36,695 bases of DNA from a virus. Taxonomy: Duplodnaviria; Heunggongvirae; Uroviricota; Caudoviricetes. Under the pieces are notes generated by a model. The model saw nothing but the letters and a program-made list of their open reading frames with translations, did no database searches and had not been told where the DNA came from. The position numbers and the translations under genes were made by a program. The stretch lies in the IMG/VR virus record IMGVR_UViG_2851938318_000015. One strand, written 5' to 3'. Shown here piece after piece: positions 31,087 to 32,671 of the stretch (position 1 is the stretch's first letter; every line of letters starts with the position of its first letter).

Positions 31087-32400
31087 ATGGCAGTAAAGAT
31101 TTCAGGTGTACTGAAAGACGGCACAGGAAAACCGGTAGAGAACTGCACCATTCAACTGAAAGCCAGACGGACCAGCAGCACGGTGGTGGTGAACACGGTG
31201 GCCTCTGAAAATCCGGATGAAGCCGGTCGTTACAGCATGGACGTTGAGTACGGTCAGTACAGCGTCATTCTGTTGGTGGAGGGATTCCCGCCGTCACATG
31301 CCGGGACCATCACCGTGTATGAAGATTCTCAACCGGGGACGCTGAATGATTTTCTCGGTGCCATGTCGGAGGATGACGTCCGTCCGGAGGCACTGCGTCG
31401 TTTTGAACTGATGGTGGAAGAGGTGGCGCGTCACGCAGAGGAGGCGAAGAAGAATGCCGGAGAAGCAGAGACGTCCGCGAGGAATGCCGGCATATCAGTC
31501 AGTCAGGCGGAAGCGAGCGCGGCAAATGCTGACACTTCAGCAGGGGAGGCATCGGAGTCAGCCCGGCAGGCGGCAGAAAGTGCAGCCTCAGCAAAGAAGT
31601 CAGAGGATGCGTCCTCGTCCTCGGCTTCTGCGGCCGCTCAAAAAGCCAGTGAGTCATCACAAAGTGCAGCAGAAGCTGAATTGTCAAGAAAGACGGCAGA
31701 AAGTGCAGCCGGTAATGCAGCCAGGGATGCAACGACCGCAACAGAAAAAGCCCGGGAGTCAGCAGAAAGCGCACAGTCAGCGGAACAAAGCAGGATAGCG
31801 GCGGAAGAGGCCGTAAACCGAATCCCCACCGTGGTGGGACCTCCCGGGCCAAAGGGGGAACAGGGGCCCGCGGGTCCTCAGGGGCCGAAGGGTGATAAGG
31901 GAGAGCGCGGTGACACCGGCCCTGTCGGGGCAACCGGCGAACGGGGACCGGCAGGTGATGCTGGTCCGGCAGGCCCGCAGGGGCCGAAAGGCGACAGGGG
32001 AGAGCAGGGAAAGACCGGTCTGACGGGAGATGCAGGTCCACAGGGTCCAAAGGGAGATACCGGTACGGCAGGCCCGGCAGGCCCACAGGGACCGAAAGGA
32101 GAAACAGGTGCGGCTGGCCCGGTAGGGGCAACCGGACCTCAGGGACCAAAGGGCGACCCGGGGGAGACGCAAATACGGTTCCGTCTGGGGCCGGGAAACA
32201 TTATTGAGACAAACAGCAATGGCTGGTTCCCGGATACAGATGGTGCGCTCATCACCGGACTGACCTTTCTTGACCCCAAAGATGCCACACGGGTTCAGGG
32301 GTTTTTTCAGCATTTGCAGGTCAGGTTTGGTGACGGGCCATGGCAGGATGTTAAGGGACTGGATGAAGTGGGCAGTGATACAGGCAGAACAGGAGAATGA
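31087..32400 (+). CDS. stf: Side tail fibre protein (Stf-like) with collagen-like Gly-X-Y repeats
   Basis: N-terminus [28 protein letters not shown]... as in lambda Stf; central Ala/Ser/Glu-rich segment; about 35 consecutive G-X-Y triplets ([26 protein letters not shown]...). Confidence 0.8.
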
Positions 32401-32401
32401 C

Positions 32402-32671
32402 ATGAACATACTAAAAAAACTTATGCAGCGTCTGTGCGGTTGCGGAAAGCATGATGACCGTGAAAACGGGGAGTTACTTACAGCACAGCTGCGACTGGGA
32501 CCGGCAGACATTCTGGAGTCAGATGAGAATGGCATTATCCCGGAGCAGGCCAGGGTAATCACGCAGGTGGTGATACTGGATGCGGATAAAAAGCAGATAC
32601 AGTGCGTGGTAAGACCGCTGCAAATTCTGCGTGCTGACGGGACGTGGGAAAATATTGGCGGGATGAAATAG
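32402..32671 (+). CDS. Small protein paralogous to the Stf C-terminal domain (function unknown)
   Basis: 89-aa ORF whose start overlaps the stf stop; LRLGPADILESDENGIIPEQARVITQVVILDADKKQIQCVVRPLQILRADGTWENIGG aligns with the last 60-70 residues of the upstream Stf ([37 protein letters not shown]...[11 protein letters not shown]). Confidence 0.5.
   Translation: MNILKKLMQRLCGCGKHDDRENGELLTAQLRLGPADILESDENGIIPEQARVITQVVILDADKKQIQCVVRPLQILRADGTWENIGGMK

What the first reader, a model, noticed from the sequence alone, without database searches (positions are those of the whole stretch)
32270..32671. Small downstream paralog of the side-tail-fibre C-terminal domain
The 89-aa ORF that starts on the stf stop codon aligns along most of its length with the final 60-70 residues of Stf (shared RLGP, NG, IT, DG-W, G positions). 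Its N-terminus is unrelated (MNILKKLMQRLCGCGKHDD). A free-standing copy of a fibre tip domain could be an alternative receptor-binding module, a fibre chaperone evolved from its client, or a superinfection-exclusion decoy. I do not recognise this arrangement.
Basis: seen in the sequence. Interest (0 to 1): 0.6.

Follow-up and report, generated by a model that had tools for sequence, protein, structure and literature searches.

The report
Small tail-fibre-tip paralog after stf
Right after the collagen-like side tail fibre gene of this E. coli prophage sits a real, well-conserved 89-residue gene that is a free-standing copy of the fibre's trimerising tip domain; it is already annotated and noted in the literature, and its function is still untested.

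Summary
The 89-aa ORF (32402..32671) aligns with the last about 62 residues of Stf (34% identity, E=1e-10, z about 17 against shuffles). Both match Pfam PF06820 (Phage_fiber_C) at about 1e-34.

The arrangement is not new. PGAP annotates this exact protein (WP_001023417.1), PHROG 576 is this family, and about 700 complete E. coli genomes carry a median of 12 copies. Mondal et al. 2016 described the same gene as Sp5 ORF68 and classed it as non-essential.

What I add:
- It is a protein under purifying selection, stronger than on the fibre tip (pN/pS 0.05 against 0.22).
- Its start signals are fixed (GGAG, TGA, one base, ATG).
- The pair "fibre tip plus small paralog" is kept in long-tailed, short-tailed and baseplate-bearing prophages of Escherichia and Salmonella, with different fibre shafts.
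- It sits where other phages encode the fibre assembly protein. The only canonical tfa here is a dead remnant 3.5 kb downstream.
- A frameshift fusion and a recombination reservoir are not supported.

Best reading, inferred and not shown: a late-expressed, dispensable partner of the fibre tip, acting as assembly helper or transient cap.

The parts
31087..32400 (+). stf: side tail fibre, 437 aa, EPclA architecture (PfN / Ala-Ser-rich coiled coil / collagen Gly-X-Y / PfC)
   Evidence: Pfam matches PF08400, PF01391 and PF06820. PGAP calls it 'prophage tail fiber N-terminal domain-containing protein'. The architecture was defined and shown to be trimeric in PMC3368898.
32173..32364 (+). PfC-A: the C-terminal Phage_fiber_C domain of Stf (residues 365-428 counted from the GTG at 31081), followed by an 11-residue acidic tail [11 protein letters not shown]
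   Evidence: PF06820, 120 bits, profile positions 1-64 of 64. pN/pS is 0.22, and 15 of 64 positions vary among 45 alleles.
32392..32404 (+). Coupling junction: GGAG (32392-32395), stf stop TGA (32398-32400), one base, ATG (32402-32404)
   Evidence: Read directly from the sequence. The string GGAGAATGAC|ATG is present in 73 of the 78 copies that have upstream sequence, and in 75 of them a long Stf-type ORF ends in TGA one base before the ATG. The same spacing occurs in short-tailed phage VT2phi_272.
32402..32671 (+). Small gene, 89 aa plus stop: free-standing PfC protein (same family as Sp5 ORF68 and phi24B 'gp59'; PHROG 576; WP_001023417.1)
   Evidence: Of 54 DNA alleles, 53 are intact, with whole-gene pN/pS 0.12. 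Two of its peptides were found in purified phi24B virions.
32402..32482 (+). N-terminal extension (aa 1-27): a basic amphipathic helix MNILKKLMQRL, then CGCGK and an acidic linker. It contains an A7 run at 32413-32419.
   Evidence: AF2 predicts a helix at residues 3-12, at low confidence. pN/pS is 0.26. The pattern M-x-I-x-KK is kept in the Salmonella orthologues, but the cysteines are not. Three of 80 copies carry a 1-nt deletion in or next to the A-run.
32483..32668 (+). PfC-B: the Phage_fiber_C domain of the small protein (aa 28-89)
   Evidence: PF06820, 119 bits. pN/pS is 0.05, and 6 of 62 positions vary. It is 66% identical to the Salmonella orthologue, against 40% for the two fibre tips. 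AF2 predicts six strands with pLDDT 77-86.
32683..32713 (.). Intrinsic terminator hairpin with a flanking A-tract and U-tract, ending the fibre transcription unit before the effector genes
   Evidence: RNA fold of 32672-32725: -25.1 kcal/mol, z=-5.5, and no shuffle folds as well. The simple consensus scan missed it.
36179..36331 (+). Remnant of a canonical tail fibre assembly gene (tfa 3' end, with an internal stop), beyond the effector island
   Evidence: PGAP pseudogene 'tail fiber assembly protein; internal stop; missing N-terminus'. Its translation is [46 protein letters not shown].

Best explanation
The small ORF is a genuine late gene. It is translated by coupling to stf and gives an 89-residue protein: a short basic N-terminal helix followed by one Phage_fiber_C (PfC) domain, an old paralog of the fibre's own trimerising tip. 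I propose that it forms PfC-type trimers and acts on the distal end of the fibre as a dispensable accessory. It would either help the tip and its shaft to assemble, or sit on the tip as a weakly held or transient cap. It occupies the place that the tail fibre assembly protein (Tfa, P2 G, Mu U) has in other phages.

Shown:
- the homology;
- that it is a protein under purifying selection;
- the fixed coupling signals;
- co-inheritance with the tip domain across tail types and two genera;
- the lack of an intact canonical tfa here;
- (from the literature) expression during lytic growth, and that it is not essential.

Inferred: trimerisation of the free protein, physical contact with the Stf tip, and the helper or cap role.
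For: (1) It is a real protein. At the same synonymous diversity (about 0.11), pN/pS is 0.05 in PfC-B and 0.26 in the N-terminal extension, against 0.22 for the fibre tip. 53 of 54 alleles and 74 of 77 evaluable copies are intact.

(2) Coupling. The order GGAG, TGA, one base, ATG is fixed. In Salmonella the ATG lies 14 nt inside the end of the fibre gene, behind AGGAGG.

(3) It travels with the tip as a module. The same pair follows a collagen shaft in lambdoid long-tailed prophages (this window). It follows a two-collagen shaft in short-tailed Stx phages. It follows a Phage_fiber_2 shaft in a lambdoid Salmonella prophage (L087). It follows a 241-aa fibre behind baseplate genes V, W, J and DUF2612 (L085). 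B-B' identity is 66%, A-A' 40% and A-B 29-38%, so the duplication is older than these lineages and both copies have been kept.

(4) It sits in the Tfa slot. It is the gene directly after the fibre gene in every context. The only canonical tfa here is a dead 3' remnant at 36179-36331.

(5) The PfC domain is an experimentally shown trimerisation module that re-nucleates the collagen helix (PMC3368898).

(6) Peptides ADGTWENIGGMK and VITQVVILDADKK of the orthologue were found in purified phi24B virions. Each had only 3 spectra, against 2267 for the fibre. So it is made in lytic growth, but in that preparation it is at most a minor virion component.

(7) PfC-like domains occur in series within one fibre chain elsewhere (P0241, four repeats). 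End-to-end stacking of such domains is therefore structurally possible.

(8) Fibre-plus-chaperone modules shared among unrelated tail types, a chaperone-independent fibre, and 'transient cap' behaviour are documented for Alteromonas phages (PMC10579305).
Against: - In Sp5 the fibre (ORF67) is essential, but ORF68 is listed among the non-essential late genes (PMC5155283).
- Recombinant EPclA trimerises in E. coli without the small protein (PMC3368898). It is therefore not an obligatory chaperone.
- It has no sequence similarity to Tfa families: Pfam at E<=1 gives only PF06820.
- No interaction has been shown, and I could not model complexes.
- The structure model is only moderately confident: pLDDT 71, from the best of five otherwise poor models.
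- Known Tfa proteins tend to vary with their fibre tip. Here the small protein is the more conserved partner.
Confidence: 0.45

Rival explanations
1. It is a stable structural tip. The small protein trimerises and is permanently attached to the distal end of Stf as a second receptor-binding knob, as the gp38 adhesin is in T2-type phages (my own knowledge). It would widen or change host range on natural hosts.
For: Its peptides are present in purified phi24B virions. PfC-like domains can be stacked in line (P0241). It is dispensable on K-12, as side fibres often are. It is conserved together with the tip.
Against: It gave about 6 spectra against 2267 for the fibre. Equimolar amounts scaled by length would give roughly 300. 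That level is similar to proteins the authors treated as contaminants. PfC-B is far less variable than PfC-A (pN/pS 0.05 against 0.22; 66% against 40% between genera), which is the opposite of what receptor-binding tips usually show. The 2026 phi24B cryo-EM work does not mention such a component.
Confidence: 0.2
2. It is a recombination reservoir or a relic. The ORF is a stored or left-over 3' end of another fibre gene that matters only as DNA, to be swapped into stf. This is the proposal of Mondal et al. 2016.
For: It was proposed in PMC5155283. Rare chimeras exist in the protein database. P0066 joins the collagen region in frame to PfC-B at the shared word GGGACCGGCAG, and P0178 joins the small-ORF N-half to the Stf PfC C-half. 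Partial 3' copies of the ORF lie in effector loci of other prophages.
Against: The two domains share no exact word longer than 11 nt, and about half of the aligned nucleotide positions match, so there is no substrate for homologous exchange. The chimeras are single, tiny clusters: P0066 has 4 member sequences on one contig and P0178 has one. No full-length fibre ending in a B-type domain was found among the hits. The start codon, Shine-Dalgarno sequence and the non-homologous N-terminal extension are conserved under selection, also in Salmonella. The protein is made. No invertase or recombination site lies nearby.
Confidence: 0.1
3. It is a frameshift fusion. A +1 shift near the end of stf (at CCC AAA G, 32274-32280, or at GGG TTT TTT C, 32300-32309) would give a longer fibre ending in PfC-B. 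The phi24B authors tried this as 'Fusion_6159_FS1/FS2'.
For: The small-ORF frame is open for 46 codons upstream of the ATG in 75 of 78 copies. The phi24B supplement lists the fusion with the remark 'Spike or just gp59?'. P0220 is such a fusion, consistent with a 1-nt deletion in the T-run.
Against: The +1 frame upstream of the ATG shows no coding constraint: pN/pS is 1.8, against 0.19 in the stf frame. The T6 site is present in only 4 of 45 alleles. In Salmonella the frame is closed one codon before the ATG. No junction peptide was found in the part of the phi24B data that is held. Mondal et al. found no frameshift signal. A fusion would also cut PfC-A in the middle.
Confidence: 0.04
4. It is a decoy or a function in the lysogen. 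The free tip domain would be made by the prophage to block receptors or incoming phage, or would serve the host as the neighbouring lom and effector genes do.
For: It lies at the border of the moron and effector region, next to lom and the nleG genes.
Against: The scan found no promoter-like site on the + strand between 30300 and 33300. Terminators follow J and lom, just upstream of stf. The N-terminus is not a signal peptide or lipobox: it has no hydrophobic core, and the cysteines are not conserved. In short-tailed Stx phages the gene sits in the middle of the late structural operon. Its sequence differs from the fibre tip by 66%, so it need not bind the same target.
Confidence: 0.06

Closest known systems
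Sp5 ORF68, phi24B 'gp59' and 933W-type small 'tail fibre' ORF (PHROG 576; PGAP 'phage tail fiber C-terminal domain-containing protein')
   Same: It is the same gene family at 91-99% protein identity. It has the same length (89 aa) and the same position one base after the fibre stop codon. [quoted passage not shown]
   Different: Here it follows the single-collagen EPclA fibre of a long-tailed lambdoid prophage and is the last gene before a terminator and an effector island. In short-tailed Stx phages it follows the EPclB fibre and sits in the middle of the late operon.
PfC domain of EPclA/EPclB collagen-like fibres (Ghosh et al. 2012, PMC3368898)
   Same: Same Pfam family, PF06820. The invariant positions R31, G44, T54, L59, Q74, G80 and W82 are shared. 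Strands are predicted, in line with the CD finding of little or no helix in PfC.
   Different: It is only 34% identical. It is free-standing rather than attached to a collagen helix. It has a 27-residue N-terminal extension in place of the shaft, and lacks the acidic 11-residue C-terminal tail. Trimerisation was shown for the fibre's domain, not for this protein.
Tail fibre assembly proteins and 'transient chaperone caps' (lambda Tfa, P2 G and Mu U from my own knowledge; Alteromonas A5/V22 chaperones, PMC10579305)
   Same: The gene lies directly after the fibre gene. It is inherited as one module with the fibre tip across unrelated tail types. A precedent exists for a fibre that folds without its chaperone (A5).
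   Different: It has no sequence relation to Tfa families. It is homologous to its presumed client, which I do not know to be described for Tfa proteins. It is more conserved than the tip. No assembly role has been shown, and it is dispensable in Sp5.
gp38-type adhesins of T2-like phages (my own knowledge)
   Same: A small protein encoded after the distal fibre gene that could sit on the fibre tip.
   Different: gp38 adhesins are stoichiometric, carry hypervariable receptor-binding loops and are unrelated to the fibre. This protein is scarce in the one virion proteome available and is the least variable part of the module.

Membership tests
Pfam PF06820 Phage_fiber_C | Score above the curated gathering threshold (25 bits) over the full domain model | tested here: met
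   119.2 bits, E=1e-34, residues 28-89 on profile positions 1-64 of 64. The Salmonella orthologue scores 87.8 bits.
Pfam PF06820 Phage_fiber_C | Domain lies at the C-terminus of a prophage tail fibre | tested here: not met
   Here the domain makes up a free-standing 89-aa protein, while the upstream fibre carries its own copy. The many short database members of the family are of this type.
Pfam PF06820 Phage_fiber_C | Forms trimers (shown for the EPclA domain) | not testable with these tools
   Shown by SEC/MALLS for the fibre's PfC only (PMC3368898).
PHROG 576 ('tail fiber protein', 89-position profile) | Full-length match to the profile | tested here: met
   200 bits, residues 1-89 on profile positions 1-89 of 89.
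Tail fibre assembly proteins (Tfa / P2 G / Mu U) | Encoded immediately downstream of the fibre gene, in the same transcription unit | tested here: met
   One base after the stf stop here. Same position in Stx phages. It overlaps the fibre gene end in Salmonella lambdoid and baseplate-type prophages.
Tail fibre assembly proteins (Tfa / P2 G / Mu U) | Sequence membership in a Tfa family | tested here: not met
   The Pfam scan at E<=1 returns only PF06820. The genuine tfa of this prophage is the pseudogene remnant at 36179-36331.
Tail fibre assembly proteins (Tfa / P2 G / Mu U) | Needed for folding or function of the fibre | not testable with these tools
   The literature speaks against a strict requirement. 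ORF68 is listed as non-essential while the fibre is essential (PMC5155283). rEPclA trimerises alone (PMC3368898).
Programmed frameshift extension of a structural protein | Conserved slippery site and coding constraint in the extension frame, kept across lineages | tested here: not met
   pN/pS is 1.8 in the +1 frame. The T6 site is present in 4 of 45 alleles. The frame is closed one codon before the ATG in Salmonella.
Silent cassette or invertible-segment systems for fibre tip switching | Homology or specific sites that allow exchange with the expressed copy, a nearby recombinase, and a cassette that lacks its own expression signals | tested here: not met
   The longest shared word is 11 nt. 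No invertase is annotated nearby. The cassette's own Shine-Dalgarno sequence and ATG are fixed.
gp38-like tip adhesins | Variable receptor-binding surface and stoichiometric presence in virions | tested here: inconclusive
   Variability is tested and low: 6 of 62 positions, pN/pS 0.05. Stoichiometry is known only from one supplementary table, with about 6 spectra against 2267 for the fibre.

The most novel reading that the evidence does not exclude
The small protein may be a new kind of fibre accessory that arose by duplication of the client's own trimerisation domain. It would be a free PfC trimer that docks end-on to the fibre tip, with its basic N-terminal helices against the acidic C-terminal tail of Stf. 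There it would act as a folding template or removable cap, functionally replacing the lost Tfa. The module would have been passed among long-tailed, short-tailed and contractile-tailed prophages of attaching-effacing E. coli, Citrobacter rodentium and Salmonella.
Probability: 0.25. Interest if true: 0.6.

Novelty: already known. Interest (0 to 1): 0.3.

Why it matters
These collagen-like fibres sit on the prophages that carry Shiga toxin and many type III effector genes, so anything that shapes their assembly or host recognition bears on how those genes spread. The small gene is present in about a dozen copies per EHEC genome and is more tightly conserved than the fibre tip, yet nobody has tested what it does beyond showing that Sp5 can do without it on K-12. 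If it proves to be a client-derived helper or cap, it would be an unusual route to a fibre chaperone. It would also be a useful handle for making recombinant PfC-tipped fibres. If it proves inert, it is simply a well-kept passenger. Either way, this window holds an ordinary copy of a known gene.

Tried and rejected
- Structure: the first AF2 run (12 sequences) gave pLDDT 52 and I did not use it. The second run (17 sequences, with Salmonella orthologues) gave pLDDT 71, from one good model of five.
- Sequence and profile searches of the PDB found no solved relative of PfC. Only the Stf N-terminal domain has one (Ur-lambda, 9e7m).
- The profile search of 1.84 billion representatives gave 95 hits. 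Apart from Escherichia and Salmonella fragments and P0241, the long multi-repeat hits (P0238, P0247, P0253, P0262, P0264) look like compositional matches to unrelated beta-repeat proteins, and I set them aside.
- The one-genome-per-species scan found only E. albertii plus short contigs filed under unrelated taxa, which are probably contamination.
- A literature search by locus tags found nothing useful. PMC12309495 concerns different small ORFs, after the central spike, and was not relevant.
- I rejected a lipoprotein signal (LCGC). There is no hydrophobic core, and the cysteines are replaced in Salmonella.
- I rejected the frameshift fusion and the recombination reservoir, for the reasons given under the rival explanations.

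Full report
**What is there.** The window is a lambdoid prophage of E. coli. It is 100% identical over the query to strain E2863, where the prophage lies next to dusA. The gene order is J (26812..30330), lom (30363..31022), stf (31087..32400), the small ORF (32402..32671) and a strong terminator hairpin (32683..32713; -25.1 kcal/mol, z=-5.5). An effector island follows: an NleG-family gene, espW, a second NleG-family gene called a pseudogene, and espM2. Stf has the EPclA architecture of Ghosh et al. 2012: the PfN domain (PF08400), an Ala/Ser-rich coiled coil, 111 residues of collagen Gly-X-Y, and a C-terminal PfC domain (PF06820).

**Checking the observation.** The 89-residue product aligns with Stf residues 366-427: 21/62 identical, 60% positive, E=1e-10. 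The Smith-Waterman score is 98, against 27.5 +/- 4.1 for 2000 shuffles (maximum 49). Both sequences match the whole PF06820 model at about 1e-34. Two details need correcting. The gene begins at ATG 32402, not at 32270, which is only where the mechanical open frame starts. The ATG lies one base after the stf stop codon (GGAG 32392-32395, TGA 32398-32400, C, ATG), not on it.

**It is already known.**
- PGAP annotates this exact protein (WP_001023417.1) as 'phage tail fiber C-terminal domain-containing protein'.
- PHROG 576 is an 89-position profile of the family.
- The stf 3' end plus the small gene is found in 697 of 5426 complete E. coli genomes, with a median of 12 places per genome. It is also in 296 phage records, mostly Stx-converting phages.
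- Mondal et al. [quoted passage not shown] They listed it among the non-essential late genes, while the fibre ORF67 is essential. They found no frameshift signal and suggested it may be an intragenomic reservoir for fibre variation.
- The supplementary proteome of the 2026 phi24B cryo-EM preprint contains two of its peptides. It also contains two hypothetical fibre-small-ORF frameshift fusions, with the remark 'Spike or just gp59?'.
- Outside Escherichia, homologues were found only in Citrobacter rodentium and Salmonella enterica.

**Is it a functional gene or a relic?** I collected 84 copies from 80 IMG/VR loci plus the window. They comprise 54 DNA alleles, of which 53 are intact. At a synonymous diversity of about 0.11, pN/pS is 0.12 for the whole gene, 0.26 for the N-terminal 27 codons and 0.05 for the PfC part. 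In the same loci the fibre's own PfC domain has pN/pS 0.22, with 15 of 64 variable positions against 6 of 62. The junction GGAGAATGAC|ATG is present in 73 of the 78 copies that have upstream sequence, and in 75 of them a long Stf-type ORF ends one base before the ATG. I also searched from the other side. Of 80 loci fetched with the fibre tip as query, 74 have an intact small gene. Three have a 1-nt deletion in or next to the A7 run at codons 4-6. Three end too early to judge. So this is a protein-coding gene under stronger constraint than the fibre tip, not a decaying remnant.

**Comparative anatomy.** The profile search turned up a diverged orthologue, P0228: MTIFKKIKHCLFGCDKSVELRLGPAEILVSDDNG.... 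It comes from Salmonella enterica, including subsp. salamae.
- In locus L087 it follows a lambdoid fibre built from PfN, Phage_fiber_2 repeats and PfC, behind K, I, sodC and J.
- In L085 it follows a 241-residue fibre that ends in a PfC domain. That fibre lies behind a gpV-like spike protein, an unidentified 126-aa ORF, a Baseplate_J protein and a DUF2612 protein. This gene order is typical of contractile-tail baseplates (my own knowledge).
- In both loci the small gene overlaps the end of the fibre gene, behind AGGAGG.
- Domain identities are: small protein to small protein 66%, fibre tip to fibre tip 40%, and fibre tip to small protein 29-38%.

The duplication is therefore older than the split of these lineages. 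Both copies have been kept side by side while the shaft (one collagen stretch, two collagen stretches, Pf2 repeats, or almost none) and the tail type changed. In a short-tailed Stx2 phage the junction is the same as here. In every case the small gene stands where lambda, P2 and Mu have their fibre assembly gene (my own knowledge of those gene orders). The only canonical tfa in this window is a 3' fragment with an internal stop at 36179-36331, beyond the effector island.

**Testing the rival readings.**

*Frameshift fusion.* The small-ORF frame is +1 relative to stf and is open for 46 codons upstream of the ATG. That stretch shows no coding constraint: pN/pS is 1.8, against 0.19 in the stf frame. 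The T6 slip site occurs in only 4 of 45 alleles. In Salmonella the frame is closed one codon before the ATG. No junction peptide appears in the part of the phi24B data that is held.

*Recombination reservoir.* The two domains share no exact word longer than 11 nt. That single word, in the collagen region, is the site of the one collagen-to-PfC-B deletion chimera found (P0066). P0178 is a second, single-sequence chimera. No full-length fibre with a B-type tip turned up among the hits.

*Decoy or lysogen function.* The scan found no promoter-like site on the + strand, and terminators lie after J and lom. There is no signal peptide, and the cysteines of the CGC motif are not conserved.

*Stable adhesin.* The two peptides have 3 spectra each, against 2267 for the fibre. 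The protein is also the least variable part of the module.

**Most likely mechanism.** PfC is a trimerisation domain that re-nucleates the collagen helix (PMC3368898). The small protein is a PfC domain with a short basic helix in place of a shaft. It is made by coupled translation in step with the fibre, and it is kept with the tip through every exchange of shaft and tail type. It is more conserved than the tip, dispensable in the laboratory, and scarce in the one virion preparation examined. The reading that fits these points best is a non-essential partner of the fibre tip. It would either help assembly or cap the tip transiently, as has been suggested for some Alteromonas phage chaperones (PMC10579305). 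Trimerisation of the free protein, contact with Stf and the helper or cap role are inferences. I put this at about 0.45. The stable tip adhesin stands at about 0.2, the reservoir or relic at about 0.1, and the decoy and the frameshift fusion at about 0.05 each. The remainder is unassigned.

**Verdict.** The arrangement is already catalogued and has been noted in print, and this copy is an ordinary member of the family. Its function is open, and the idea of a client-derived helper is testable.

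Noticed in passing
window 36179-36331 (+): A dead 3' fragment of a canonical tail fibre assembly gene (…[45 protein letters not shown]) lies 3.5 kb downstream of stf, beyond the effector genes. It looks as if the collagen-PfC end of stf, the small gene, the terminator and the effector island replaced the original stf 3' end and most of tfa.
   Followed up: partly
L019 5043-5138; also L023, L024, L031 near 5044-5139; L064 4975-5111 and 7233-7303: In other prophages, partial copies of the last about 100 nt of the small gene (about 83% identical) recur 0.8-3 kb downstream. In L019, the one locus examined, an NleG-family ORF (4383..4958) lies between the small gene and the partial copy, and the terminator-like sequence recurs after the copy. 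The end of the small gene plus its terminator may be a recombination anchor for exchange of effector cassettes. No such copy was found in this window.
   Followed up: partly
window 32413-32419: There is an A7 run in codons 4-6 of the small gene. Three of 80 related loci carry a 1-nt deletion in or next to it, which shifts the frame. This could be sequencing error, decay or slippage.
   Followed up: partly
window 30349-30368 and 31049-31070 (+): Terminator-like hairpins follow J and lom, the second only about 10 nt before the stf start region. This implies that stf and the small gene are read by antiterminated late transcription.
   Followed up: no
window 32775-36695: An effector island follows the terminator: an NleG-family gene (32775..33254; PGAP says its N-terminus is missing), espW (33385..34443, -), a second NleG-family gene called a pseudogene (34522..35172, -), espM2 (35355..35945, +) and a DinI-like gene (36447..36695, -).
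   Followed up: partly
proteins P0066, P0178, P0220 (database clusters, not in the window): Rare chimeras between the fibre and the small gene exist. P0066 is a collagen-to-PfC-B in-frame deletion at the shared word GGGACCGGCAG (window 31944 and 32497). P0178 is a small-ORF N-half joined to a Stf PfC C-half. P0220 is a fusion consistent with a 1-nt deletion in the T-run at 32303-32308.
   Followed up: partly
protein P0241 (565 aa, representative library): A collagen-containing fibre of unknown origin carries four tandem PfC-like units (…VVVLDAD…GILRVRQADGTWKEIPAIKG) separated by short Gly-X-Y stretches. This shows that the domain also occurs in line within a fibre.
   Followed up: partly
L086 about 4840-4850: In one Salmonella-type locus the fibre's PfC domain is interrupted by an in-frame TAG (…GNIPQ*DGMVMTS…), while the small gene downstream is intact. 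In that copy the fibre gene also appears fused to a J-like ORF.
   Followed up: no
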